DNA of 64,000 nucleotides from Longimicrobiales bacterium (GCA_035465395.1 DATHRK010000015.1:7916-71915), one strand, 5' to 3'. Numbered from the stretch's first letter, positions 29,059 to 44,021 are shown. Notes: generated by a model from the sequence alone, not told the origin. Numbers and translations: made by a program.

Positions 29059-29370
29059 CTAGCGGGTGGCGGCCGGGGCCGCGCCCGGCACGAGGCCGAC
29101 CCGCAGGCCCAGCGCGCCGGCGGCGAAGCCGATGGCCAGTACCAGAAGGCAGGCCGCGGCGCCGATTCGCTGCGCCCGGGACAACCTCCGGCCACGCGTC
29201 ACTGGGACGGGGCTCTGCACCGGGGCGGTCCACCGCAATCCCCCCGATTCCTGCAGCAGCAGGGTCGGATCCGCGCCGCAGACGTGGCACAGCCGGCTGC
29301 CACCGGAGTTGACGGCCCAGCAGTGCGGGCACACGAGCAGGTCGCCCGGATGGGTCACGCGTCGCTCCAC
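29059..29370 (-). CDS. Zinc-ribbon membrane protein
   Basis: CPHC...CHVC ribbon followed by one TM helix (IGAAACLLVLAIGFAAGALGL). Start is GTG at 29370, or GTG at 29358 (GTGA overlap with the upstream stop). Confidence 0.5.
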   Translation of the reverse strand: MERRVTHPGDLLVCPHCWAVNSGGSRLCHVCGADPTLLLQESGGLRWTAPVQSPVPVTRGRRLSRAQRIGAAACLLVLAIGFAAGALGLRVGLVPGAAPAATR

Positions 29371-30074
29371 GACGCGCCGTCGGAGGCCTGGCGCAGGAGG
29401 CGTTCAACCGGGTCCGCGGCGCGCGGGAAGAAGTAGCGGTCGGAGATGCGGTTGAGGCTCACGCGAAGCGCGGGGAAGAGCCGTCCGCAGCGATCGAGCA
29501 GCCCGTCGATGCCATGGGCGGCGGCCGCCGACGACCGCGCGGCGGCCTGGTAGCCGGCCGCCCCGAGCGTCTCGAAGTAGTCGAGGCCGGGAGCACCACG
29601 CCGCTGGACCCGGGCCGTGACGCGGTCCGGGAACACGCCGCTCAGCCAGAGCGCGGTGTCACCCATGTGGGCCTGGAGCATGAACGCGGTCGATCCATCG
29701 GACTCCTCGATCCGTGCGAGCAGATCGGTAAGGTACTCCGTGCGGCTGCCGTCGTCTTCGACCCTCGGCCCCCGGTTCTCGACTCCGAAGGAATGGAGAA
29801 GGGCGGCGAGATAGTCGGCGAGGGCGCGGTCGTCGAGCCCGCCTTCGAGCAGCGCATGCCGCACGAAGAGGTAGAGCAGGAGCCGTACCGTGGGCTTGCC
29901 GTGGTCGACCGCACCACCCGCCAGCACCGCGTTGAGCATCCGCGGGTCATCCAGAACCGCATCGAGGCCGTCCCGGCAGAGGCGCGCTTCTGCCTGGTCG
30001 GGAGTCTCCTCGTGGACGCGTTGCAGCGCCTCGATGGTCGAGTCGATCTCGGCGGCCCCGAAGGCAGCCCGCAT
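29355..30074 (-). CDS. Hypothetical protein
   Basis: ATG at 30074 (MRAAFGAAEIDS...). G/C-rich third positions. No recognised domain. Confidence 0.5.
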   Translation of the reverse strand: MRAAFGAAEIDSTIEALQRVHEETPDQAEARLCRDGLDAVLDDPRMLNAVLAGGAVDHGKPTVRLLLYLFVRHALLEGGLDDRALADYLAALLHSFGVENRGPRVEDDGSRTEYLTDLLARIEESDGSTAFMLQAHMGDTALWLSGVFPDRVTARVQRRGAPGLDYFETLGAAGYQAAARSSAAAAHGIDGLLDRCGRLFPALRVSLNRISDRYFFPRAADPVERLLRQASDGASWSDA

Positions 30075-30418
30075 GTCCGGCAGTATCACGCCACACCTCC
30101 CTCCACGCACCCCGACACTCGCCCCGGGCGATGGGCACTCCTGCTGCCGGCGCCACCTCCCCGCACCCGCGGGGGTTGCTCGGCGATCATTGCCGCACGC
30201 CGCGGAGCCGCTTGCAGGGCATCAAGGCCCGATCTAGCTTCGGGGAGTCGCGCACACACAACGGCACTGAGAGGGGTATCCGAACCTCTAATGCGCCCTT
30301 TCGGGCCCTGTCAACGTTCTCGTTTGTCGGCCGTGCGCGACTTCTCGGTCGTACCGCGCCCGGGGTCGCGATGATCCCGGGCGCGATCGTGTGTGCCTTT
30401 TCTCCGCATCAGCGCGCG

Positions 30419-31165
30419 ATGAGCCAGATTTCTCGTGCCGCCGCCGCCACGACGCCGTGGCTGTCCAGCGTCCTGCTTTCCGTCCTCGCCGGTTGCGCAT
30501 CCGCGCCGGAGCCGGAGGCGTTCAGCGAGGGGGTCCTCGTGCTGGCCGAGAACGTCTCCGACGGGGCCTCCAGCGAGTCCATCGCCAGCGAGGTGACCCA
30601 AGCGGGATCGGACTTCGTTCTCCTTGCTTCGCCGAGCGACAGCGCCTGGTTCGCGGACGTCGCCGCCGGCAGCGGGCTGGTCATGTCAGGGCCTTCGATC
30701 GAAGAAGGGCTCGGCTTCGCCTACCTGGCCGCGACGGAGCCGCTCGGCGACACGACGATCGCGATCCCCGTCGGCTCGGACGGAGCCGTCGTCCTGCACG
30801 ACGCGCTCTACGAACTGGGAGACGGCGTCTTTCTCGACTTCATCGCGTTCCGGGCCGACGACGCGCCCGACCCCCACGCCCTGATCCAGTCATTTCTCGC
30901 CTACATGGCCACGGATGTCATGACGAACGCTCCGCTCGTCCTCGGCATTCACGCCCGGGACGAGCGGCTGGCGGACTCGCTGGCGGTCCTGCTTCGCCCC
31001 TCGTTCCAGCCACCGGCTGCGTGCGAGAGCGGAGGCGACGCGGCACCGAGTGTGGGCGGCCTGCGCCTGTTCATCGGCACGCCGGTGCAGATCCGCTGTC
31101 AGGAGATCCGTCGCCCGCCGGGCGCCGGGCGCGGCCTCCTCGCGAAGCTGCTGCTGCTGCGGTGA
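30419..31165 (+). CDS. Hypothetical lipoprotein (first gene of the LuxE/LuxC operon)
   Basis: Signal peptide plus lipobox LLSVLAGC. ATG at 30419 within track ORF 30131..31165. Confidence 0.6.
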   Translation: MSQISRAAAATTPWLSSVLLSVLAGCASAPEPEAFSEGVLVLAENVSDGASSESIASEVTQAGSDFVLLASPSDSAWFADVAAGSGLVMSGPSIEEGLGFAYLAATEPLGDTTIAIPVGSDGAVVLHDALYELGDGVFLDFIAFRADDAPDPHALIQSFLAYMATDVMTNAPLVLGIHARDERLADSLAVLLRPSFQPPAACESGGDAAPSVGGLRLFIGTPVQIRCQEIRRPPGAGRGLLAKLLLLR

Positions 31166-32886
31166 ACGGCCCCGACGGCGGCGACGGGCGGGGAGCGGCA
31201 GCGCCCGCCGTCCCTGGCGAGGGCGTGCCGTGGCGGGCCTGGGGCCCCGCTGCGTTCGCCGAGGCCGCGGAGGCGGAGCGACCGATCTTCCTTTCCCTGC
31301 AGACCCGGTGGTGCGCCTGGTGCCGGCGCCTGGAGCGCGAGACGTTCGCCGACCGTCGCGTCGCCAGGTTGCTCGCCGACGCGACCGTGCCGATCCGCGT
31401 CGACGCCGAGCGTTATCCGCACGTGCGCGATCGCTACGTGACGTCCGGTTGGCCGACCAACGCCTTCCTCACGCCGTCGGGAGGCGTCCTTTGGAGTGGG
31501 CCATTCGTGGAGCCGGCCGAACTGCTGCCTGCCGCGCGACGCGTGCTGGCGGCCTGGGAGCGACAGGCGGAGGAGCTGGAGGCGGAGCTGGAGCGTCGGC
31601 GGGCCGCGATCGCGTCGGGCCGGAAGCAGGCGTCCAGGGGCGGGATGCCGCGCCGCGAGGCGGCGGACGCCGTGCTGACGTTCCTGCGCCAGTCGTTCGA
31701 TGCGCGCAACGGCGGCTTCGGGGAGGCCCCCAAGTACCCACCCGTAGACGCCGTGGCGCTGCTGTACGCCGAGGCCGAGCGCGTCGGCGACGCCGACCTC
31801 GTGGGCATGGCGGATCGGACCCTCGACGGCATGCTGGCGGGAGAGCTGTGGGAGCGCGAGACGGGGGCGTTCCACCGGTACGCGCTGGCCGAGGATTGGA
31901 CCGAACCATCGACGGAGCGCCTGCTCACGGTCAACGCGGAGCTGGCGCGGTGCTACGCGCTGTCGGCCGCGCTCCGAGACCGGGACGACTGGCGGGAGGT
32001 CGCGGAGAGAGCCGTGGCCTGGGTGGAGGATGCGCTGGCCCGGACGCACGGACTGGTGGCCGCCAGCGTCGCCGCCCGAGACGAGGACGGCGCGGCCGTG
32101 CGGGATGACACCGCCTTCGCCGACGCCAACGCGGCCTGGGTGCGATGTCTGGCCGACGCGGGCGCCGCTTTGGGGAAGGCCGATTGGGTCGAGCGTGCCC
32201 GCGCGGCGCTGGAGGCCGCGCGCGCGGCCTTCGACGACGACAGCGCGTCGCTGCCTCGCCACTTCGTCGCCGAAGACGAGGACGGCGCACCTCCCCGCGG
32301 GCTCCTCGTGGACGCGGCGGAGTTGCTCACGGCGGCGGTCGCCGTAGCGCGCGCGTCGGGCGAAGCCGAAACGCTCGCGTACGCGATCGACCTCGCGGAG
32401 CGCATGCGCGCGGAGCTGTGGAGCGAGCACGGAGGGTTCCGCGACCGGCCCCACCTGGCGGGCGACCCGCTCGGGGCGCCCGAACGCCCGTTCCACGAGA
32501 ACGCGACCGCTGCCGCCGCGTTGCTGTCCCTGGACGCGCTGGCCGAGACCGGGGGCGCTCGCTCCCAGGCGGAGCGCACGCTCGCCCTGCTCTCTCCGAC
32601 GGCGCCCCGCTACGGGCTGGACGCCGCCGGGTTCGCCCTGGCCACGCTGGAGTTCTTCGACGCGGCCCCCGTCGCCGTCGTCCGCACCGACAGTGCGGCC
32701 GGTCCGCTGCGCTCCGCGGCGGCGACTTCCGCACGCGGCCGCTGCTGGAACCTGACGGAGGACGCCCCCGTGGCCGGGCGAACGTTCGAGGCGGCCGGCG
32801 ACCCCGCCGCCTGGGTCAAGCGCGATGGGGATTGGTCGGGCCCCGTGACCGAGGCGTCGGAGCTGCGGGCCCTGCTGGGCGGATGA
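31162..32886 (+). CDS. DUF255/YyaL-type thioredoxin-domain protein
   Basis: PIFLSLQTRWCAWCRRLERETFAD..PIRVDAERYPHVRDRY...GWPTNAFLTPSG, then a helical (alpha/alpha)6-like C-terminal region. The GTG start overlaps the upstream stop (GTGA). Confidence 0.75.
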   Translation: MNGPDGGDGRGAAAPAVPGEGVPWRAWGPAAFAEAAEAERPIFLSLQTRWCAWCRRLERETFADRRVARLLADATVPIRVDAERYPHVRDRYVTSGWPTNAFLTPSGGVLWSGPFVEPAELLPAARRVLAAWERQAEELEAELERRRAAIASGRKQASRGGMPRREAADAVLTFLRQSFDARNGGFGEAPKYPPVDAVALLYAEAERVGDADLVGMADRTLDGMLAGELWERETGAFHRYALAEDWTEPSTERLLTVNAELARCYALSAALRDRDDWREVAERAVAWVEDALARTHGLVAASVAARDEDGAAVRDDTAFADANAAWVRCLADAGAALGKADWVERARAALEAARAAFDDDSASLPRHFVAEDEDGAPPRGLLVDAAELLTAAVAVARASGEAETLAYAIDLAERMRAELWSEHGGFRDRPHLAGDPLGAPERPFHENATAAAALLSLDALAETGGARSQAERTLALLSPTAPRYGLDAAGFALATLEFFDAAPVAVVRTDSAAGPLRSAAATSARGRCWNLTEDAPVAGRTFEAAGDPAAWVKRDGDWSGPVTEASELRALLGG

Positions 32887-34010
32887 CGCCGGGGGAGCGG
32901 CTGCGCCAGGAGCTGCTCGCGCGCTTCCGACGCGGCGCGGATCATCCGTTCGATGCGCCCGCGTTCAACACGTTGGCTCTGGCCGCCTTTTCGGTGCAGT
33001 TCGAAGCCGACGACACCTACCGGGCGTACTGCGGGCGGCGCGGCGTGGGGCCAGCCACGGTCGACGACTGGCGGCGCATCCCGGCCGTGCCCGCTCGCGC
33101 CTTCAAGGATCTGGTGTTCGCGTCGGGTCCGAGGGGCGAGCGCTCCGCGGTGTTCGCGACGAGCGGCACCAGCGCAGGCCCAGCGCGTCGCGGCCGCCAC
33201 CACGTGCCCGATCTGGACCTCTACGACGCGTCCGCCGCGGCGACGCTCCAGCACTTTCTCCTGCCGGATCTCGAGGCGTGCCGGGTGCTGTCCCTGATCC
33301 CGCCGCCGGAGGATCTGCCGGACTCCTCGCTGTCCTACATGGCCGGGCTGGCGCGAGAGCGCTTCGGCGCCCCGGGCAGTGGGTGGTTCATGTCGCCGTC
33401 CGGGGGGCTCGCGTCCCGGCGTCTCGGCGCCGCGCTGGAAGACGCCCGCGGGGCCGACGAGCCCGTTTGCCTGCTGGGGACCTCGCTGGCGTTCGCGGCG
33501 TGGCTGGAGGAGCTGGCCGCGTCTGGGACGCGCTTCCGCCTCCCCGACGGCTCACGGCTTATGGACACGGGCGGGGCGAAGGGCCGGTCGCGATCTCTCG
33601 ATTCGGCGGAGCTGCGACACGGTTACGCTACGGCGCTCGGCATCCCGGACCATCGGTGCGTCAACGAGTACGGGATGACCGAGCTCTGCTCGCAGTACTA
33701 CGACCGCTGCCTCCGACGGGGTTTCCGCGAGCCGCGAGACCTCAAGGGCTCCGCGCCCTGGTTGGCGTGCGTGGCCGCCGATCCCGATACGCTGGAGCCG
33801 TTGCCGGACGGCGCGATCGGCGTGCTCCGGCACGTGGATCTCGCCAATCTGGGGTCGGTCGTCGCCGTCCAGACGGAAGATCGCGGCCGGGTGGTCGACG
33901 GCGCCGTGGAGCTGTTGGGACGCACCCCGGGCGCGGAGCCGCGAGGCTGCTCGCTCGCGCTGGAGCTGATGCTCCAGCAGGCGGGTGCCGCCGAAAGGCG
34001 CGGTGTCTGA
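32883..34010 (+). CDS. luxE: LuxE-family acyl-protein synthetase (adenylate-forming)
   Basis: FNTLALAAFSVQFEADDTYRAYC...WRRIPAVPARAFKD, FATSGTSAG, NEYGMTE. ATGA overlap with the upstream stop. Confidence 0.75.
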   Translation: MTPGERLRQELLARFRRGADHPFDAPAFNTLALAAFSVQFEADDTYRAYCGRRGVGPATVDDWRRIPAVPARAFKDLVFASGPRGERSAVFATSGTSAGPARRGRHHVPDLDLYDASAAATLQHFLLPDLEACRVLSLIPPPEDLPDSSLSYMAGLARERFGAPGSGWFMSPSGGLASRRLGAALEDARGADEPVCLLGTSLAFAAWLEELAASGTRFRLPDGSRLMDTGGAKGRSRSLDSAELRHGYATALGIPDHRCVNEYGMTELCSQYYDRCLRRGFREPRDLKGSAPWLACVAADPDTLEPLPDGAIGVLRHVDLANLGSVVAVQTEDRGRVVDGAVELLGRTPGAEPRGCSLALELMLQQAGAAERRGV

Positions 34011-35436
34011 GGTGGCCGCCGCGGCGCTCGACGGCTTCTTCCTGCCCGGCCTCGACCCGGCCGATGTCGCCGATTGGGCGGAGACGCCGCTGGCCGGCCT
34101 CGACACCGTCGTGCGTCACCCCCTGCTCGACGGTGAGGCGACGGCGCTGGTCTGGGGCCGACTGCGCGCGGCGCGCGTGGTCCGGCTGTCCGGCGCTCCG
34201 CTCGGGGACACCGCGCCGACGCTGGCGGAGGCGGCCGCCAGGCTGGTTTCCGCAGCCCGCGAGGAACCGTGGCGGGCGGCCATCGCGGCGCAGTTCGGCC
34301 TGTCGCCGGACATGCTGGACCACGTCCTTGAGAACATGGCGCGCGGCTGGACGGCGCGCGCTTTCTCCGGGCTCGTAGCCGCGGAGTTCGGCGAGGCGAA
34401 CGTGGTCACGCGGTTCGCCGAAGACCCCTCCCGCCCCGGCGTACTCCACAGGCCGGTCGCGGAAGACGTGATCTTCCACGTCCTCGCCGGCAACGTCCCC
34501 GGGGTGGGCGTCACCGCGCTCGCCCGCGCGCTGCTGGTCGGCAGCTCCGCGTTCGCGCGCGCCGCTCGATCGGGATCCCTGCTGCCGGCGCTTTTCGCGC
34601 GCTGTCTGGCCGCTACGGACCCCGCGCTGGCGGCCTGCGTCGCGACGACCTGGTGGCCCGGCGGCGACGCGGACGCCGAGCGGGCGCTGCTCGTTCGGGC
34701 GCGGCTGGTCGTGGTGTACGGAGGGGCGGAGGCGGTGTCGGCGATCCGGGCGCGGGCGCGCGCGGAAACAAGGGTGGTCGTGCACGGCCCCGGGGTCTCC
34801 GTGGGCATGGTGTCGGCCGACGCCCTCGCGTCGGAACGCGTGGACCGAACGGCGGAGGCCGCGGCTCTGGCGCTGGCGACGTTCGATCAACGCGGCTGCA
34901 CGTCGCCGGTGGCCTTCCTGGTGGAGAGGGCCGACGCCGCGAGCACCGGGACTTTCTGCGAAGCGCTTGGACGCCGACTCACCGAGCTGTCGCGGGCGAT
35001 GCCACCGGGTCCGCCACACCCACCGGAGGCGGCACGCCGTCGCCAGGTGATCGAAGCCGCGGAGATGAGGGCCGCCCGGTCCGATGGCGGCTCGAGCGCT
35101 CCGGGTCCGCCGATCGAGGGGCCCGGCTTCTGTCTAATTCCCACCTTCCGACTGGAGCCTTCCGACTTCTGCGTGGGGCGGACGGTGCAGGTGCTGGAAG
35201 TCGCCGACCTGGAGGATGCGGCGGAGCAACTCGACCCGCTGGCGGGGGCGCTCCAGACCGTCGGCTACGCCGGCAATCCCGCGGGCATCGATCGCATCGC
35301 CGACCGCCTGGCGGCGCTCGGCGTGTCCCGGATCACGACGCTGGATGCGATGCCGTGGCCCCCGCCGGCGTGGCGGCACGACGGGGCGCATCCCCTCCGC
35401 GAGCTGGTGCGCTGGTCGGACCTGGAACGGGCCTGA
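33985..35436 (+). CDS. luxC: LuxC-family acyl-CoA/acyl-protein reductase
   Basis: FHVLAGNVPGVGVTALARALLVG, and the catalytic Cys context FDQRGCTSP. Candidate GTG starts at 33985, 34003 and 34012 all bracket the luxE stop at 34008-34010. Confidence 0.75.
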   Translation: MPPKGAVSEVAAAALDGFFLPGLDPADVADWAETPLAGLDTVVRHPLLDGEATALVWGRLRAARVVRLSGAPLGDTAPTLAEAAARLVSAAREEPWRAAIAAQFGLSPDMLDHVLENMARGWTARAFSGLVAAEFGEANVVTRFAEDPSRPGVLHRPVAEDVIFHVLAGNVPGVGVTALARALLVGSSAFARAARSGSLLPALFARCLAATDPALAACVATTWWPGGDADAERALLVRARLVVVYGGAEAVSAIRARARAETRVVVHGPGVSVGMVSADALASERVDRTAEAAALALATFDQRGCTSPVAFLVERADAASTGTFCEALGRRLTELSRAMPPGPPHPPEAARRRQVIEAAEMRAARSDGGSSAPGPPIEGPGFCLIPTFRLEPSDFCVGRTVQVLEVADLEDAAEQLDPLAGALQTVGYAGNPAGIDRIADRLAALGVSRITTLDAMPWPPPAWRHDGAHPLRELVRWSDLERA

Positions 35437-35454
35437 AACCGTCCGATCCGCCGC

Positions 35455-35655
35455 CTATTCGGGGTCGTCGGAGTCGCTCCGTTCGGCCCGCCACATCACG
35501 AGCTGGCGCGTCCCGGAAGAGCTCTCTTCGACGCGCACGGTGAGAGAATCGCCGTCCTGGAGCCCCATGTCGTCGCGAATGTCCTGGGGAATGGTGACGC
35601 GTCCGCCCACGCCGACCGACACATCGCCGTAATACAGCGTACGATACAGGGCCAT
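35455..35655 (-). CDS. AbrB/MazE/SpoVT-family DNA-binding protein (66 aa)
   Basis: SpoVT-AbrB motif GRVTIPQDIRDDMGLQDGDSLTV. ATG at 35655 with GGAGGA 7 nt upstream. Confidence 0.7.
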   Translation of the reverse strand: MALYRTLYYGDVSVGVGGRVTIPQDIRDDMGLQDGDSLTVRVEESSSGTRQLVMWRAERSDSDDPE

Positions 35656-35710
35656 CTGCTTGTCCTCCGCGACCGGTGTGGCGCGCGCTACCGCGCCTTG
35701 AGAAACGGAA

Positions 35711-35740
35711 TAAATAACAGAAATGCGCTGGGGTCGGCAA
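35711..35740 (-). promoter_or_regulatory. Candidate sigma-70-type promoter of the AbrB-like gene
   Basis: Minus strand reads TTGCCG-N17-TTATTT (or N18-TATTTA), inside the only AT-rich patch of the region. Confidence 0.35.
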
Positions 35741-36021
35741 TCCCCGCGCGCGCACGCGCGTGTGTAGGTCATGATGGTTCGTTGTCGCGATGCGTTTGCA
35801 CGATGCAACACTTCGGGCGGGATCCTTCCGGAGTTCGATGGGTATCCAAGTCGCTTCCGGACACCCTCGGTTGTGACCTAACTGCGTGCTAATCCATCAG
35901 TTGAATGGGCGCATCGGCGTCCGGAAGGGCCCCTGGGGCACGACCGTTGCCCCCCTGGCGGCCGGATTTCGCGGTGCCGACGCCGGCACCACGTGAAATA
36001 GAGAACAAGGCTGGTTTACAT

Positions 36022-40178: not shown

Positions 40179-40727
40179 ATGATCCGAGGTAGGGGTGCGG
40201 TCCTCGCGGCTGGCCTCGTTGCGGCGCTCGCGCTGGCCGGGCTGATCGCCGCCCAGGGGGATTCCGCCGACGGCGGTCCATCCGCGGCGTCGACCGCCGA
40301 CACCGGCCAGCCCATCGCGTATCCCCACAACGTGCACGCAGGACAGCTCGAGATCCCCTGCATGTACTGTCACTACTCCGCGGATCGCTCGGTCGATGCC
40401 GGCATACCCCCCGTCGCGTCCTGCATCGGCTGTCACGCGCCGGGAGGCGCTCAGTTGGCCGCGGCGGACCGCCCCGAGGTGCAGAAGCTCATCGACTACT
40501 GGAACCGGGGTGAACCCATTCCATGGGTTCGCATCCACGACCTGCCGGACCACGCACACTTCCCGCACTACATGCATGTGAACGCGGGGCTGACGTGTCA
40601 GGAGTGCCACGGCCAGGTGCAGGAGGTCGGCCAGGTCGAACAGGAATCGTCGCTGAGGATGGGGTGGTGCGTGGAATGCCACCGCGCCCGTGGGGCCAGG
40701 ACCGATTGCTCGGTGTGCCACTACTAG
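40179..40727 (+). CDS. actA: Alternative complex III subunit ActA (pentahaem cytochrome c)
   Basis: Five CxxCH motifs: CMYCH, CIGCH, CQECH, CVECH, CSVCH. N-terminal TM/signal helix. Confidence 0.85.
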   Translation: MIRGRGAVLAAGLVAALALAGLIAAQGDSADGGPSAASTADTGQPIAYPHNVHAGQLEIPCMYCHYSADRSVDAGIPPVASCIGCHAPGGAQLAAADRPEVQKLIDYWNRGEPIPWVRIHDLPDHAHFPHYMHVNAGLTCQECHGQVQEVGQVEQESSLRMGWCVECHRARGARTDCSVCHY

Positions 40728-40790
40728 ATGGGCGGCGCGGATGACGGGTCTCGCGGGGTTCGCCGGAGTCAGGGCGTGAAGAAGAAAGGC

Positions 40791-43700
40791 ATGGAACGCC
40801 GTGACTTCCTGAAGGTCGTCGGCGCCGCCGGCGCCGGAACCGGTCTCGCCGGCTGCACCACCGGGGCCGCCGAGAACCTCATTCCCTACGTCGTACCGCC
40901 GGAAGAGATCGTTCCCGGCATCGCGACCTGGTATCGCACGACGTGCAGGGAGTGCGACGCCGGCTGCGGCATGAGCGTGCGCACGCGTGAAGGGCGGGCG
41001 GTGAAGGCCGAGGGCAACGCCCTCTCGCCGGTCTCGCACGGTCGACTCTGCGCGCGCGGTCAGGCTTCGCTGCAGGGCCTCTACGACCCCGACCGGGTGC
41101 CGCAGGCGCTGCGTCGCGGATCGGGGGGCGGTTGGGACCGCGTCACATGGGACGCCGCAGAGCAGGAACTGGCGCGGGGGATCGCCGAGGCGGACGGCAG
41201 CGCGGTGTTCCTCACCGGATCCTCGAGCGGCACGATGGACCGGCTGATCGACGACTGGTGCGCCGCGATGGGGGTCGAGCGGGTCCGCTTCGACGCCTTC
41301 GGGCTCGAGGCCGTGCGCACCGCGAGCCGACTCGTGTACGGCCGGGAGGGCGTCCCCCGGCACGACCTCGCGGCGGCCGAGGTGGTGGTCACGTTCGGCG
41401 CCGACTTCATGGAGACCTGGGGCTCTCCGGTCGACTACACGCACGGTTTCGTGCAATCCCATGCCTACCAGGACGGCCGGCGGGGTCGCCTCATCGCGGT
41501 GGGTCCGCACCTGTCGCTCACCGGCCTGTCCGCCGACGACTGGATCGCGGCGCGTGCCGGCACCGAGCACCTCGTCGCGCTGGCGATGGCGCGGCTGGTG
41601 GCCGAGTCCACGGGCGCCGCGCTCGACGGACCGCTCGCGAGCGTCGACGTCGCCGCCGCGGCGCAGGCCGCCGACGTGGACGTGGAGGCGGTCCGTAACG
41701 CCGCGCTCGCGTTCGCGAACGACGGGCGCTCGGTGGCGATGGGCCCGGGCGTCGCGGCGACGAGCAGCGCCGCGACCGCGCTTGCCACGGCGGTCGCCCT
41801 GCTCAACCGGGCTGCCGGCAACGTCGGCCGGACGGTGTTCCCCGCAGAGGCCGAGCTCGGCCCGGCGGGCACCTACGCCGCCTTGAGCGATTTGATCGAC
41901 CGGGCCTCGGCCGGCACACTCGGCGCGCTGCTGATCCACGGCGCCAACCCGCTGCACGGCGTGCCGCTCTCCGCCGACGCGGCCGCGGCGCTCGATCGCG
42001 TCGGCTTCATCGCGTCGTTCGCGTCGCAGCTCGATGAGACCGCCGCGCGCGCGCACCTCCTCCTCCCCGACCACCACTTCCTGGAAGCGTGGGGCGACGT
42101 GGAGCCGCGGCCGGGCGTGTTCGGGATCGTGCAGCCGGTGATGCGGCCGGTCTTCCAGACCAAGCAGACGGGCGATGTCCTGTTGTCGGTCGCGCGGCGC
42201 GCCGGCGCGTCCCTGCCGAACGCTGCCAACACCTTCTACGACTATCTCCGCGCGCGCTGGACGCGGGACGTCGTGCCCGGCGCCGACGAAGAGGCGTGGC
42301 GGGCCGCGCTGCGCACGGGGGTGGTCGTCGCGCAGGGCGGAACCGCGTCGGCGCCCCCGCCCATCGCGGCCCTGGCCGGAGCACCGAACCAGGCGGCGCA
42401 GTCCGACGCGCAGCAGCAGCCTCAGCCCGGCGCGCAGCAGCAGCCCGCCGGTCCGATCGCCGCCGCCGCGGGTTCGCGGCCCGCCAGCGTAGCGGACGTC
42501 GACTTCGCGCGCGCCGAGCTCGCCGGTGCGGACGACGCCGAGTTCGATCTCGTGGTCTATCCGTCCTACCGGTTCCTCGACGGCCGCCTCGCGAACCGCT
42601 CGTGGCTGCAGGAGCTCCCCGATCCGGTCAGCAAGATCGCCTGGAGCTCCTGGGTGGAGATGCACCCGGACGCCGCTGCGGAGCGCGACCTGGATGTCGG
42701 CCACATCGTCACGGTCGCGACCGAGCAGGGCGACTTCGAGCTCCCCGTCTGGACCCACCCCGGCGTGCGCGAGGACACCATCGCCGTGCAGCTCGGGCAG
42801 GGCCATACCAACCTCGGTCGCTACGCGAGGAATCGGGGCGTCGACGCGGCGCGCATGCTCGCCCCGCTCGTCGACGCCTCCTCCGGCGGGGTCGTGTGGA
42901 TCCAGACGCGGGCGGCCGTAACCGCCACCGGACGGTGGGAACGGCTCCCGTACACCGAGGGCGAGTCGGATGCCTCTGCGCGCGACGTGGCGAAGGCGAT
43001 GTCGCTCGAGGACGCGCGGGCCGCCGAGCCGGTCGACATCCTCGGGCTCGCGGCGTACCGGGCAGGGGTCGAGAACGCCCCGGGCGGCGAGGGCAACGCG
43101 CGCGGGCAGGAGGCCGACCACGCCGACCCGATGCCGATCGGGAGCGCGCCACACCACGGCCAGCCCCACCCGCTCGAGGCCCAGGTCGACGAGCTTCAGG
43201 CCGCGGGCGGCTTCGGTCCGATCGTCGGCATGGGCGCGGCGCCCCAGGACTACCCGCCGCCCGACACCTATTACGGCGAGTACTCGGAGGAGAAGCCCCG
43301 CTGGGCCCTGGCGATCGACACGGAGCGCTGCACCGGATGCAGCGCCTGCATGACCGCGTGTTACGCCGAGAACAACATCGCCGTGATCGGCCCGGAGCAG
43401 GTCGCCAAGGGCCGGCTGCTCTCCTGGATCCGCATCGAGCGGTATTGGGAGCTCGGCCACGAAGAGGGCGGAGGCGAGCATTTCCAGGGCACCCGCTTCC
43501 TGCCGGTCATGTGCCAGCAGTGCGGCAACGCGCCGTGCGAGCCGGTGTGTCCGGTCTACGCCTCCTACCACACGCCCGAGGGCCTGAACGCGCAGGTCTA
43601 CAACCGCTGCGTAGGCACGCGGTACTGCGCGAACAACTGCCCGTACAAGGTGCGACAGTACAACTACTACACGGCGGAATGGCCCGAGCCGCTGAACTGG

Positions 43701-44020
43701 CAGCTCAACCCCGACGTGACGGTGCGCGAGAAGGGCGTCATGGAGAAGTGCACGTTCTGCGTGCAGCGCATCCGTGACGCGCAGCACCACGCGAGGATCG
43801 AGGACCGGCCCGTGGCCGACGGCGAGATCGTGCCGGCGTGCGCCCAGACCTGCCCCGGCGACGCGATCGTCTTCGGCGACATCAAGGACCCGACGTCGCG
43901 GGTCGCCCAGGTGTCGGCCTCGGGCCGCGCCTACCGGATGCTCGGCGAGCTCAACACGCAGCCCGGCGTCACCTACCTGCAGCGCGTGTCGATGCACGCG
44001 GAATCCGGGGAGTCACACTG

Positions 44021-44021
<1 letters not shown>
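40791..44021 (+). CDS. actB: Alternative complex III subunit ActB (fused molybdopterin-like B1 and Fe-S B2 domains)
   Basis: Tat signal MERRDFLKVVGAAGAG. CISM-like N-terminal domain, a Gln/Pro-rich linker, and ferredoxin Cys clusters (CTGCSACMTAC, CQQCGNAPCEPVCP, CVGTRYCANNCP, CTFC). Alternative GTG start at 40776. Confidence 0.9.

What the first reader, a model, noticed from the sequence alone, without database searches (positions are those of the whole stretch)
30419..35436. Four-gene translationally coupled operon: lipoprotein, DUF255-thioredoxin, LuxE and LuxC, with no luciferase genes
Four genes are chained by start/stop overlaps: GTGA at 31162-31165, ATGA at 32883-32886, and candidate GTG starts at 33985, 34003 or 34012 bracketing the luxE stop at 34008-34010.

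- LuxE-like: FNTLALAAFSVQFE...WRRIPAVPARAFKD, TSGTSAG, YGMTE.
- LuxC-like: HVLAGNVPGVG, catalytic QRGCTSP.

Together these form the fatty-acid activation and reduction half of the bacterial lux system, which makes a fatty aldehyde. There is no luxA/B/D, aldehyde decarbonylase or wax synthase nearby.

Instead the pair is coupled to a DUF255/YyaL protein (CAWC thioredoxin motif plus a helical toroid-like domain) and an uncharacterised lipoprotein. The coupling implies stoichiometric co-production of a cytoplasmic aldehyde-forming pair with envelope or redox proteins. I cannot map this combination to any described pathway.
Basis: partly seen in the sequence, partly recalled or inferred. Interest (0 to 1): 0.65.

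Follow-up and report, generated by a model that had tools for sequence, protein, structure and literature searches.

The report
LuxE/LuxC acid-reductase operon, no luciferase
A soil-type Gemmatimonadota bacterium has a real four-gene operon whose last two genes should turn a carboxylic (probably fatty) acid into an aldehyde; it is a trimmed copy of a gene cluster conserved across that phylum, unrelated to light production, and its product is unknown.

Summary
Four + strand genes (30419-35436) are joined by GTGA, ATGA and an 8-nt overlap, and three match the families named: DUF255, LuxE and LuxC. The organism is a Longimicrobiales MAG.

- **The enzyme pair.** Both cysteines of the LuxE-to-LuxC acyl relay are conserved. 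Neither protein reaches NCBI's score for true lux orthologues. No luciferase, LuxD or aldehyde-consuming gene lies within about 6 kb.
- **Conservation.** LuxC relatives occur in 394 species genomes, and the best 80 are all Gemmatimonadota. LuxE-LuxC is the tightly coupled core. DUF255 precedes it in 29 of those 80.
- **A trimmed cluster.** The commonest form is histidine kinase, lipoprotein, sigma-54 regulator, Omp85 barrel, DUF4390 (PlrP-like), DUF255, LuxE, LuxC. The window's clade lacks the kinase, regulator, barrel and DUF4390.
- **A leader.** That clade instead has a conserved ~190-nt leader (30207-30396) with no Rfam match.
- **The other two proteins.** The lipoprotein is predicted to have an endonuclease/exonuclease/phosphatase fold. 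DUF255 lacks a signal peptide, so it is cytoplasmic.
- **Outside the phylum.** Five distant LuxE-LuxC loci lack DUF255.

LuxE/LuxC homologues without luciferase are already known. The substrate, the fate of the product and the role of DUF255 remain inferred.

The parts
30207..30396 (+). Conserved non-coding leader upstream of the lipoprotein gene. It includes the invariant block TCTAGCTTCGGGGAG and a 10-bp G+C-rich hairpin or palindrome (CGCGCCCGGG ... CCCGGGCGCG) that ends about 28 nt before the start codon.
   Evidence: - The DNA is better conserved than the adjacent proteins among window, L003 and L010.
- nhmmer, a covariance model and a metagenome pattern scan found six copies, always in front of lipoprotein-DUF255-LuxE-LuxC: window, L003/L004, L010, L092, L093, L094.
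- Its minimum free energy is -112.8 kcal/mol, z = -4.46 against shuffles.
- Covariation is not significant with only 4 distinct sequences.
- There is no Rfam match at E <= 1.
- It is not coding. The upstream frame is broken in L003 and L010 (read from the alignment).
30419..31165 (+). Exported lipoprotein of 248 aa (lipobox LAGC, Cys26) with a predicted endonuclease/exonuclease/phosphatase-like (EEP) fold.
   Evidence: - No Pfam or NCBIfam hit.
- The lipobox is kept in the homologues whose N-terminus was recovered.
- Twelve database homologues were found. Invariant residues include the HDALYE motif, TDV and two cysteines.
- The AlphaFold2 model has pLDDT 82.8 and pTM 0.79.
- Foldseek against PDB gives EEP proteins as top hits: 3MPR, TDP2 and neutral sphingomyelinase 8J2F, with E 4e-8 to 1e-6 and TM 0.5-0.6.
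- It is homologous (33-42% identity) to the lipoprotein that sits between the kinase and the regulator in the full cluster.
31162..32886 (+). DUF255/YyaL-type protein of 574 aa: an N-terminal thioredoxin fold with CAWC, then a helical domain. Predicted to be cytoplasmic.
   Evidence: - PF03190 scores 85.2 bits and Thioredoxin_7 scores 47.6 bits.
- The best solved relative is 7TKV, 'Thioredox_DsbH domain-containing protein', E 3.5e-27, aligned over residues 21-423.
- CxxC is kept in 29 of 30 homologues. Only 16-29 residues precede the domain in several of them, so there is no signal peptide.
- It lies directly upstream of LuxE in 29 of 80 Gemmatimonadota species loci.
- The junction is within 20 nt or overlapping in 27 of 31.
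- An alternative start is GTG 31225.
32883..34010 (+). LuxE-like acyl-protein synthetase of 375 aa, an adenylate-forming enzyme of the LuxE/PaaK group. The predicted acyl-accepting residue is Cys356 in PRGCS.
   Evidence: - PF04443 scores 55.1 bits against a threshold of 24.9. The NCBIfam LuxE equivalog scores only 38 against a 550 cut-off.
- The only PDB sequence hit is LuxE 7XC6_E. There, 'eprgCSLAL' aligns with 'eqkGCSLSM'.
- RGCS is present in all 70 LuxE homologues recovered.
- TSGT, NEYGMTE and TGG.KG are invariant.
- The AlphaFold2 model has pLDDT 90.8. Its nearest folds are PaaK-family ligases, TM about 0.6.
34003..35436 (+). LuxC-like acyl-thioester reductase of 477 aa, aldehyde-dehydrogenase fold. 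The predicted catalytic residue is Cys299 in FDQRGCTSP. Alternative starts are 33985 and 34012.
   Evidence: - PF05893 scores 174.6 bits against a threshold of 21. The NCBIfam LuxC equivalog scores 45.5 against a 750 cut-off.
- The only PDB sequence hit is LuxC 7XC6_A. HVLAGNVPGVGVT aligns with HLLAGNVPLSGVT, and FDQRGCTSP with YDQQACFST.
- Cys299 is invariant in the 13-sequence alignment.
- It is 100% identical to the NCBI product 'acyl-CoA reductase [Longimicrobiales bacterium]'.

Best explanation
**What it is.** A single operon of a Longimicrobiales (Gemmatimonadota) bacterium. Its conserved core is a two-protein carboxylic-acid reductase of the LuxE/LuxC type.

**Proposed mechanism**
1. 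LuxE-like adenylates a carboxylic acid with ATP. A long-chain fatty acid is most likely, but this is inferred.
2. It transfers the acyl group to its own C-terminal Cys356.
3. The flexible tail delivers the acyl group to Cys299 of the LuxC-like partner.
4. LuxC reduces the thioester with NAD(P)H and releases an aldehyde.

The catalytic residues, the pairing of the two genes and the gene order are shown. The chemistry is inferred from the solved Photobacterium complex.

**Relation to lux.** The pair has nothing to do with light production. It is a Gemmatimonadota-lineage LuxE-LuxC pair, found in 394 species genomes whose best 80 matches are all from that phylum.

**The larger cluster.** The pair normally ends a longer cluster: NtrY-like kinase, EEP-fold lipoprotein, sigma-54 regulator, Omp85-family outer-membrane barrel, DUF4390 (PlrP-like periplasmic sensor partner), DUF255, LuxE, LuxC. 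The window's clade has lost the kinase, regulator, barrel and DUF4390. It keeps the lipoprotein and DUF255, and it carries a conserved structured leader in front of the operon.

**Inferred roles.** The aldehyde, or an alcohol derived from it, probably feeds an envelope lipid or envelope modification. The cytoplasmic thioredoxin-fold DUF255 protein probably assists the pair, for example by keeping the two relay cysteines reduced. Neither role has been shown.
For: **Family and catalytic residues**
- Pfam matches are above threshold.
- Both relay cysteines align to the Photobacterium phosphoreum complex 7XC6. Its mechanism is described in PMC9157457 and summarised in PMC12041015.
- The LuxE cysteine is present in all 70 homologues. 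The LuxC cysteine is invariant.

**The two enzymes work together**
- The junction is a 4-nt overlap in 49 of 60 loci.
- A natural LuxE-LuxC fusion exists (P0389, 871 aa).
- LuxE lies next to or near LuxC in all five distant loci sampled.

**Phylum-wide cluster**
- 394 species genomes carry a relative, and the best 80 are all Gemmatimonadota.
- Among those 80: 29 have DUF255-LuxE-LuxC, 5 have Omp85-DUF4390-LuxE-LuxC, 19 have bare LuxE-LuxC, 19 have p699-LuxC and 8 are other or truncated.

**Link to the envelope**
- The Longimicrobium protein p699 is homologous to the Omp85 protein (hhalign 98.6%, E 6.6e-16). An outer-membrane barrel therefore sits next to LuxC in three different architectures.
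- DUF4390 is PlrP, the periplasmic third component of NtrYX-type systems (PMC13001219).
- The lipoprotein has a lipobox and an EEP fold.

**The window's version is trimmed**
- There is no Omp85 or DUF4390 homologue anywhere in the 64 kb.
- The flanks are the same as in full-cluster loci.

**DUF255**
- It is cytoplasmic and keeps its CxxC motif.
- It is tightly joined to LuxE in 27 of 31 loci.
- Three of the five DUF255-less Omp85-type species loci carry a DsbD_TM gene and a thioredoxin gene right after LuxC.
Against: - No substrate information exists. Neither protein is an orthologue of the fatty-acid enzymes (38/550 and 45.5/750 bits). Other LuxE/LuxC homologues act in glycan-decoration pathways (PMC7874193, PMC4772473).
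- No gene for a downstream aldehyde-using step lies in the window or in the related loci.
- DUF255 is absent from most LuxE-LuxC loci (51 of 80), so it is dispensable for the core reaction.
- The whole region is syntenic across the phylum: T2SSE, the 251-aa gene, AbrB-like, SLT, a histidine kinase and alternative complex III. Part of the conserved order may therefore reflect inheritance rather than function.
- The junction between DUF4390 and DUF255 is looser (median 36 nt). This suggests two sub-operons.
- The junction estimates choose the start codon nearest the upstream stop, which biases them towards small gaps.
- The lipoprotein lacks a clear canonical EEP catalytic set, for example the C-terminal SDH motif (read). 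It may not be an enzyme.
Confidence: 0.55

Rival explanations
1. The pair reduces a carboxylate that is not a fatty acid, such as a small hydroxy acid, an amino-acid-derived acid or a carrier-bound acid. The aldehyde is used to decorate a surface glycan, lipoprotein or secondary metabolite. The LuxE/LuxC homologues of Aeromonas flagellin glycosylation islands and V. cholerae RfbN (tetronate on the O-antigen) are proposed to work this way.
For: - Scores fall far below the NCBIfam fatty-acid equivalog cut-offs.
- Identity to 7XC6 is low and only part of each protein aligns.
- The nearest folds to the LuxE model are PaaK-type ligases for aryl or short acids.
- Non-lux roles are described in PMC7874193 and PMC4772473.
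- Relatives outside the phylum are fused or adjacent to a class-III aminotransferase (P0106, L009, L096). The aldehyde therefore has different fates in different lineages.
Against: - No glycosyltransferase, acyl carrier protein, sugar-nucleotide or aminotransferase gene lies next to the pair in the window or in the Gemmatimonadota loci whose genes carry Pfam annotation.
- The recurrent neighbours are envelope and regulatory proteins, not glycan-synthesis genes.
Confidence: 0.2
2. Only LuxE-LuxC is a functional unit. The lipoprotein and DUF255 are neighbours by descent. The lipoprotein belongs to the lost two-component sensing module, and DUF255 is a general-purpose redox protein. The codon overlaps reflect genome compaction, not a shared pathway.
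For: - 51 of 80 species loci have LuxC, with or without an adjacent LuxE, but no DUF255.
- In full clusters the lipoprotein sits between the kinase and the regulator, not next to DUF255.
- The junction between DUF4390 and DUF255 is loose (median 36 nt).
- Broad synteny of unrelated flanking genes is kept across the phylum.
- DUF255 was absent from all five distant LuxE-LuxC loci.
Against: - DUF255-LuxE adjacency persists at about 40% LuxC identity across two orders, with overlapping or near-abutting codons in 27 of 31 loci.
- When the sensing module was lost, the lipoprotein and DUF255 were both kept and became directly joined. This is seen in the window clade and separately in L070.
- The lipoprotein stays under constraint in that clade (53-92% identity, invariant motifs).
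Confidence: 0.25
3. The two enzymes are a catabolic CoA ligase (PaaK-like) plus an ordinary aldehyde dehydrogenase working in the oxidative direction.
For: - The Foldseek top hits for the LuxE model are PaaK1, PaaK2 and other PaaK-family ligases.
- PF00501 AMP-binding co-hits appear in many homologues.
- Some distant LuxC relatives also touch PF00171.
Against: - Pfam reports only LuxE and LuxC for the window proteins at E <= 0.01.
- The C-terminal acyl-accepting cysteine, a LuxE feature (PMC9157457), is invariant.
- The only PDB sequence matches are LuxE and LuxC of 7XC6.
- The two genes are overlapped or fused, as expected for a relay pair.
Confidence: 0.05
4. The pair is a decayed remnant of a bioluminescence (lux) operon.
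For: Only the family names support this.
Against: - There is no luciferase or LuxD gene nearby.
- The proteins are far below the equivalog cut-offs.
- The pair is conserved under selection in hundreds of Gemmatimonadota species.
Confidence: 0.01

Closest known systems
LuxC-LuxE fatty acid reductase of luminous bacteria (Photobacterium phosphoreum complex, PDB 7XC6; PMC9157457)
   Same: - The same two Pfam families.
- The same two thioester-carrying cysteines: C-terminal GCS in LuxE and the active-site Cys in LuxC.
- The same nucleotide-binding GNVP motif in LuxC.
- Adjacent, co-translated genes.
   Different: - Only distant sequence similarity (E about 1e-7). NCBIfam equivalog scores are 38/550 and 45.5/750.
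- No luxA/B luciferase and no LuxD acyl-transferase.
- Gene order is E then C, directly overlapped.
- A different phylum, and different neighbours: DUF255, a lipoprotein, and in relatives Omp85, DUF4390 and a two-component system.
LuxE/LuxC homologues in non-luminous bacteria: Aeromonas polar-flagellin glycosylation islands (PMC7874193), V. cholerae O1 RfbN and Riemerella anatipestifer AS87_03730 (PMC4772473)
   Same: A LuxE/LuxC-type activation and reduction pair used outside bioluminescence. The precise product is still unproven in those systems too.
   Different: Those pairs sit among acyl carrier protein, ketoreductase, AMP-ligase and glycosyltransferase genes. None of these is present here.
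LuxE-LuxC-aminotransferase arrangements, and stand-alone acyl-thioester reductases that feed transaminases (TabE of the tambjamine BE-18591 pathway, bioRxiv 10.1101/2025.08.11.669332)
   Same: A LuxC-class reductase makes an aldehyde from an activated acid. Distant relatives of the window's LuxC are followed by or fused to a class-III aminotransferase (L009, L096/P0106).
   Different: No aminotransferase lies at the Gemmatimonadota loci. TabE works without a LuxE partner on acyl-carrier or CoA thioesters.
PlrS-PlrR-PlrP (an NtrYX-family two-component system with a periplasmic DUF4390 protein; PMC13001219)
   Same: The full Gemmatimonadota cluster has a histidine kinase, a sigma-54-type regulator and a DUF4390 protein in one operon.
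   Different: - That module is absent from the window.
- In Gemmatimonadota it also contains an EEP-fold lipoprotein and an Omp85 barrel, and it is followed by DUF255-LuxE-LuxC.
- The proteobacterial clusters carry rsmB and trkAH instead.
DUF255 / YyaL / SPATA20 family (PF03190; solved example 7TKV)
   Same: A thioredoxin-fold N-terminus with CxxC, followed by a helical domain.
   Different: - At 574 aa it is shorter than the 668-aa solved example.
- No function is established for the family. In the papers I could search, the only hits concerned human SPATA20 association studies and sperm biology.
- I found no previous report of a link to LuxE/LuxC.

Membership tests
LuxE acyl-protein synthetase (PF04443) | Pfam model score above the family threshold | tested here: met
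   55.1 bits against 24.9, covering residues 26-361.
LuxE acyl-protein synthetase (PF04443) | Orthology with the long-chain-fatty-acid ligase LuxE of lux operons (NCBIfam equivalog NF052244) | tested here: not met
   38.1 bits against a cut-off of 550.
LuxE acyl-protein synthetase (PF04443) | C-terminal cysteine that carries the acyl thioester | tested here: met
   Cys356 in PRGCSLAL aligns with KGCSLSM of 7XC6_E. RGCS is present in all 70 homologues.
LuxE acyl-protein synthetase (PF04443) | Adenylate-forming core motifs and fold | tested here: met
   TSGT, NEYGMTE and TGG.KG are invariant. The model has pLDDT 90.8 and its nearest folds are PaaK-family ligases, TM about 0.6. 7XC6_E was not in the top 50, so the fold places the protein in the LuxE/PaaK group but does not separate LuxE from PaaK.
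LuxE acyl-protein synthetase (PF04443) | Long-chain fatty acid as substrate | not testable with these tools
   Needs enzyme assays.
LuxC acyl-thioester reductase (PF05893) | Pfam model score above the family threshold | tested here: met
   174.6 bits against 21, covering nearly the full model.
LuxC acyl-thioester reductase (PF05893) | Orthology with the lux-operon LuxC (NCBIfam equivalog NF052251) | tested here: not met
   45.5 bits against a cut-off of 750.
LuxC acyl-thioester reductase (PF05893) | Active-site cysteine and GNVP nucleotide-binding motif | tested here: met
   FDQRGCTSP aligns with YDQQACFST, and HVLAGNVPGVGVT with HLLAGNVPLSGVT of 7XC6_A. Cys299 is invariant.
LuxC acyl-thioester reductase (PF05893) | Works with an adjacent LuxE partner | tested here: met
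   The two genes overlap in the window. A 4-nt overlap occurs in 49 of 60 loci. A natural fusion exists, P0389.
Bacterial lux (bioluminescence) operon | luxA/luxB luciferase genes and the luxD acyl-transferase linked to luxC/E | tested here: not met
   No such domain occurs in the genes within about 6 kb on either side, nor in the annotated related loci. The rest of the 64-kb window was not scanned.
DUF255 / YyaL / SPATA20 (PF03190) | Thioredoxin-like domain with CxxC, scoring above the family threshold | tested here: met
   85.2 bits against 27. The motif is CAWC, and CxxC is kept in 29 of 30 homologues.
DUF255 / YyaL / SPATA20 (PF03190) | C-terminal helical (alpha/alpha) toroid domain | tested here: inconclusive
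   Sequence alignment to 7TKV continues to about residue 423 of 574, with weak similarity. No structure model of this protein was made.
Endonuclease/exonuclease/phosphatase (EEP) superfamily, for the lipoprotein | EEP four-layer alpha/beta sandwich fold | tested here: met
   The model has pLDDT 82.8. There are 131 PDB matches at E <= 0.001, and the top 50 listed are EEP-fold proteins, TM 0.42-0.61.
Endonuclease/exonuclease/phosphatase (EEP) superfamily, for the lipoprotein | Sequence match to a Pfam EEP model, and the canonical catalytic residues (metal-binding Glu, Asp/Asn pair, terminal Asp-His) | tested here: inconclusive
   No Pfam hit at E <= 1. Invariant His127-Asp128, Asp111, Asp166 and Asp186 exist. 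No terminal SDH-like motif is evident. A residue-level structural alignment was not available.
NtrYX/PlrSRP-type two-component module | Kinase, sigma-54 regulator and DUF4390 protein encoded in the cluster | tested here: not met
   The window's cluster lacks all three. Omp85 and DUF4390 have no homologue anywhere in the 64 kb. The window's only kinase and regulator matches lie outside the cluster on the - strand. All three are present in 20 or more related loci.
Known structured RNA (riboswitch or leader), for 30207-30396 | Match to an Rfam covariance model, or significant covariation | tested here: not met
   No Rfam match at E <= 1. Covariation is not above the shuffled controls with 5 sequences. 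The fold energy is unusual (z = -4.46).

The most novel reading that the evidence does not exclude
Gemmatimonadota possess a phylum-specific, trans-envelope system that has never been characterised. In it, a LuxE-LuxC acid reductase, helped by a dedicated cytoplasmic thioredoxin-toroid protein (DUF255), makes an aldehyde-derived envelope lipid or signal. Its handling or sensing involves an EEP-fold lipoprotein, an Omp85-family barrel and a PlrP/NtrYX-type sensor. In the window's clade the protein sensor has been replaced by a new cis-acting structured leader, possibly a riboswitch for the pathway's metabolite. This would give the first functional context for the DUF255/YyaL/SPATA20 family.
Probability: 0.2. 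Interest if true: 0.65.

Novelty: new variant of a known kind. Interest (0 to 1): 0.4.

Why it matters
**Why it could matter**
- Gemmatimonadota are abundant in soils but barely studied. A gene cluster conserved across the phylum that joins an aldehyde-forming enzyme pair to outer-membrane and sensing proteins points to an unknown envelope lipid or modification.
- The recurrent, tightly coupled DUF255-LuxE-LuxC trio is one of the few genomic clues to the function of the widespread but functionless DUF255/YyaL/SPATA20 family.
- The clade-specific conserved leader is a candidate new regulatory RNA or operator.

**Why it is not surprising**
- LuxE/LuxC homologues without luciferase are already known.
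- Nothing here shows new chemistry.

Tried and rejected
- **Sigma-54 promoter upstream of the operon.** The near-match at 30133-30147 is not meaningful. Matches with up to 2 mismatches are fewer in the window than in shuffles (32 against a mean of 46.9), and that stretch is not conserved.
- **Sigma-70-type promoter and intrinsic terminator scans of 29900-36000.** Nothing was found. The hairpin in the leader has no conserved U-tract, so it is not a canonical terminator.
- **Rfam search of the leader.** No match.
- **Wider copies of the leader.** A covariance model searched over 40 loci and the window found no copy outside the window-type clade. The covariation test was not significant.
- **The leader as an N-terminal extension (MIPGAI...).** Some gene callers used this start. 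I rejected it because the frame is broken in L003 and L010, and because it would bury the signal peptide.
- **Homology of the Longimicrobium 189-aa and 181-aa proteins to DUF4390 or the lipoprotein.** hhalign found none beyond the signal peptide.
- **Profile search with LuxE to reach other phyla or find DUF255 fusions.** It returned 2514 hits, but the 120 listed are all unfused, and every one that carries a taxon label is Gemmatimonadota.
- **Literature on Gemmatimonadota ether lipids or fatty aldehydes, and on bacterial DUF255.** Nothing relevant was found. One apparent 'LuxE' hit was the word 'Luxeon'.
- **Lux-operon remnant and PaaK/ALDH reassignment.** I considered both and rejected them (see rival explanations).

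Full report
**1. The observation**

The window has 72% G+C, so long ORFs occur in all six frames and ORFs alone mean little. Four + strand ORFs match the finding exactly.

| Gene | Coordinates | Junction with the next gene |
|---|---|---|
| lipoprotein | 30419-31165 | GTGA at 31162-31165 |
| DUF255 protein | 31162-32886 | ATGA at 32883-32886 |
| LuxE-like | 32883-34010 | stop at 34008-34010; GTGs at 33985, 34003, 34012 |
| LuxC-like | 34003 (or 33985/34012)-35436 | - |

- The junction sequences are as described.
- An identical NCBI protein of 477 aa, 'acyl-CoA reductase [Longimicrobiales bacterium]', fixes the annotated LuxC start at 34003 and names the organism.
- Pfam supports three assignments above the family thresholds: PF03190 at 85 bits, PF04443 at 55 bits and PF05893 at 175 bits. 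The lipoprotein has no hit.
- The DUF255 start is the least certain. GTG 31225 is an alternative.

**2. The enzyme pair**

Against all PDB sequences, the LuxE-like protein hits only LuxE of the Photobacterium phosphoreum complex 7XC6. The LuxC-like protein hits only its LuxC.

- *LuxE cysteine.* The window's ...EPRGC(356)SLAL aligns with ...EQKGCSLSM, which contains the cysteine that carries the acyl thioester in LuxE (mechanism: PMC9157457, summarised in PMC12041015).
- *LuxC cysteine.* FDQRGC(299)TSP aligns with YDQQACFST, the LuxC active site. HVLAGNVPGVGVT aligns with HLLAGNVPLSGVT.
- *Conservation.* The LuxE cysteine is present in all 70 homologues I recovered. The LuxC cysteine is invariant in a 13-sequence alignment.
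- *Fusions.* A natural LuxE-LuxC fusion exists (P0389).
- *Not lux orthologues.* NCBIfam equivalog scores are 38 against 550 and 45.5 against 750.
- *Fold.* An AlphaFold2 model of the LuxE-like protein (pLDDT 90.8) is closest to PaaK-family ligases. That places it in the LuxE/PaaK branch of the adenylate-forming enzymes but does not separate the two. The C-terminal cysteine and the LuxC partner do separate them.
- *What is shown and what is inferred.* The acid-to-aldehyde relay is well supported by sequence. The identity of the acid is not.

**3. No lux context**

Genes within about 6 kb are:
- an ABC ATPase;
- a PilB/T2SSE ATPase;
- a zinc-ribbon protein;
- a conserved 251-aa unknown on the - strand;
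- an AbrB/MazE-like gene on the - strand;
- an SLT transglycosylase;
- a HAMP histidine kinase;
- two unknowns;
- alternative-complex-III genes.

These come, and from the syntenic annotated locus L003. There is no luciferase, LuxD, decarbonylase, wax synthase, alcohol dehydrogenase or aminotransferase.

**4. Neighbourhood survey**

A motif scan of one genome per species found 394 genomes encoding a relative of this LuxC. The best 80 are all Gemmatimonadota, from Longimicrobiales and Gemmatimonadales. In a library of 1.84 billion 50%-identity cluster representatives, the LuxC has 206 relatives at E <= 1e-30 and 2227 at E <= 1e-3.

I ran tblastn of the window's proteins, and of proteins from annotated relatives, against these loci.

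| Architecture | Species loci (of 80) |
|---|---|
| DUF255-LuxE-LuxC, usually preceded by kinase, lipoprotein, sigma-54 regulator, Omp85 and DUF4390 | 29 |
| The same long cluster without DUF255 | 5 |
| LuxE-LuxC alone | 19 |
| Longimicrobium type: 181-aa, 189-aa and 699-aa genes, then LuxC, with LuxE displaced 2-4 kb downstream or elsewhere | 19 |
| Truncated or other | 8 |

- *The Longimicrobium barrel.* The 699-aa protein is homologous to the Omp85 protein (hhalign 98.6%). An outer-membrane barrel therefore neighbours LuxC in three architectures.
- *DUF4390.* This is PlrP, recently shown genetically to be a periplasmic third component of NtrYX-family two-component systems (PMC13001219).
- *The window's lipoprotein.* It is homologous (33-42% identity) to the lipoprotein encoded between the kinase and the regulator.
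- *The window's exact order.* Lipoprotein-DUF255-LuxE-LuxC, without kinase, regulator, Omp85 or DUF4390, occurs only in the window, L003/L004, L010, L092 and L093 (one clade) and in L070. The window holds no Omp85 or DUF4390 homologue anywhere.
- *Flanks.* They match those of the full cluster. I therefore read the four genes as a trimmed derivative.

Junction estimates follow. They are biased towards small gaps, but they are frame-constrained.

| Junction | Result |
|---|---|
| LuxE to LuxC | 4-nt overlap in 49 of 60 |
| regulator to Omp85 | overlapping in all 26 (23 by 4 nt) |
| Omp85 to DUF4390 | overlapping in 25 of 28 (21 by 4 nt) |
| DUF255 to LuxE | overlapping or within 20 nt in 27 of 31 |
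| DUF4390 to DUF255 | looser, median 36 nt |

This pattern suggests a sensing and outer-membrane sub-operon followed by a DUF255-LuxE-LuxC sub-operon.

The five most distant LuxC relatives I could place are L009, L090, L091, L095 and L096. All keep LuxE beside or near LuxC. None has DUF255. Two have a class-III aminotransferase, adjacent or fused. The DUF255 link is therefore seen only within Gemmatimonadota.

**5. The two accessory proteins**

*DUF255*
- It has the thioredoxin fold with CAWC. CxxC is kept in 29 of 30 homologues.
- Several homologues have only 16-29 residues before the domain, so it is cytoplasmic, not an envelope protein.
- Its best solved relative is the functionless structural-genomics entry 7TKV.
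- I found no functional literature for bacterial members.

*The lipoprotein*
- It has a conserved lipobox and 12 database homologues with invariant HDALYE, TDV and Asp residues and two cysteines.
- Its AlphaFold2 model (pLDDT 82.8) matches endonuclease/exonuclease/phosphatase-fold proteins: the Bacteroides EEP protein 3MPR, TDP2 and neutral sphingomyelinase.
- I could not decide whether a catalytic site survives. No Pfam EEP match exists and I see no terminal Asp-His motif.

**6. A conserved leader**

While aligning the region upstream of the lipoprotein gene, I found that about 190 nt (30207-30396) are better conserved at the DNA level than the neighbouring proteins.

- A pattern scan of metagenomes and profile searches found six copies, all directly upstream of window-type operons.
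- The region folds unusually stably (z = -4.46).
- It ends in a perfect 10-bp G+C palindrome or hairpin.
- It has no Rfam match and no significant covariation with the few sequences available.
- It is not coding.
- It occurs only in the main clade that lost the two-component module, and was not found in L070. It could be a leader RNA or a protein operator that replaced that control. This is a hypothesis.

**7. Interpretation**

*Best-supported reading.* The operon is a Gemmatimonadota-lineage LuxE/LuxC-type carboxylic acid reductase operon that makes an aldehyde by a cysteine-to-cysteine acyl relay.

*Envelope destination.* The recurrent company of an outer-membrane barrel, an exported lipoprotein and an envelope-type sensor suggests that the product serves the cell envelope. 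A fatty acid is the default substrate by analogy.

*DUF255.* The tight coupling suggests that DUF255 helps the pair, perhaps by protecting the relay thiols. A hint in the same direction is that three of the five DUF255-less Omp85-type species loci (L014, L018, L067) carry DsbD_TM and thioredoxin genes just after LuxC.

These last steps are inference.

*Rivals.*
- A substrate that is not a fatty acid, as in glycan-decoration pathways (PMC7874193, PMC4772473).
- Mere inherited synteny for the lipoprotein and DUF255.
- A PaaK/ALDH catabolic pair or a lux remnant. Both are poorly supported.

**8. Novelty and verdict**

LuxE/LuxC homologues outside luminous bacteria are known, so the headline 'LuxE and LuxC with no luciferase' is not surprising.

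What I could not find described is:
- the phylum-wide cluster;
- its DUF255 and Omp85/PlrP associations;
- the trimmed variant with its conserved leader.

I rate it a new variant of a known kind, of moderate interest. Its main value is as a lead to Gemmatimonadota envelope biochemistry and to the function of DUF255.

Noticed in passing
window 30207-30396 (+); also L003 4169-4367, L010 4122-4315, L092 6360-6554, L093 9636-9448 (-), L094 1172-1295: A roughly 190-nt non-coding leader in front of the operon is more conserved than the proteins. It has invariant blocks (TCTAGCTTCGGGGAG, ACCTCTAA, TGTCAA) and a perfect 10-bp G+C hairpin or palindrome. There is no Rfam match. Its fold is unusually stable, and covariation is inconclusive. 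It was found only in the main clade that lacks the two-component module, and not in L070, which also lacks it.
   Followed up: partly
L005/L006/L014 9499-10987; also L018 and L067, just downstream of LuxC: In Omp85-type clusters that lack DUF255, LuxC is followed by a Transgly_assoc gene, a DsbD_TM (CcdA-like) gene and a thioredoxin/AhpC-TSA gene. A thiol-redox module therefore accompanies the pair in both arrangements.
   Followed up: partly
P0389 (871 aa); P0106 (822 aa) = L096 3508-5976; L009 9089-10282: Natural fusions and neighbours of distant relatives: a LuxE-LuxC fusion; a LuxC fused to a class-III aminotransferase; and LuxE-LuxC followed by an aminotransferase in a Deltaproteobacteria MAG. 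These imply an acid-to-aldehyde-to-amine route in those lineages.
   Followed up: partly
L008 5708-6898: In one Gemmatimonadota lineage an FAD-dependent oxidoreductase (DAO family, 171 bits) overlaps the start of LuxE, in the place where DUF255 sits elsewhere.
   Followed up: no
window 29355-30110 (-): A 251-aa protein with no Pfam match is divergently transcribed from the operon. It keeps this position in window-type and full-cluster loci (48-75% identity). Its function is unknown.
   Followed up: no
window 35455-35811 (-): An AbrB/MazE-like (SpoVT-AbrB fold) gene lies convergent to LuxC. It holds this position in most Gemmatimonadota loci, including those with bare LuxE-LuxC.
   Followed up: no
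L001 4534-7975 (Longimicrobium terrae) and about 19 similar loci: In the Longimicrobium-type arrangement LuxC follows a 699-aa Omp85/DUF5686-like barrel, a 189-aa exported protein and a 181-aa RsbRD_N/HisK_N-like protein. LuxE is displaced 2-4 kb downstream or is absent from the locus.
   Followed up: partly
window 40179-44021 (+): A multihaem cytochrome c7-like gene is followed by a 1097-aa ORF whose L003 counterpart is a molybdopterin/FeS oxidoreductase. Together they look like the ActA/ActB start of an alternative complex III. The same genes follow the cluster in L003 and L007.
   Followed up: no
window 30131-31165 (+): The lipoprotein frame stays open 288 nt upstream of the true start. Some public gene calls (P0118-P0120) start at an upstream MIPGA... 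that lies inside the leader hairpin. This is probably a mis-annotation caused by the high G+C content.
   Followed up: yes
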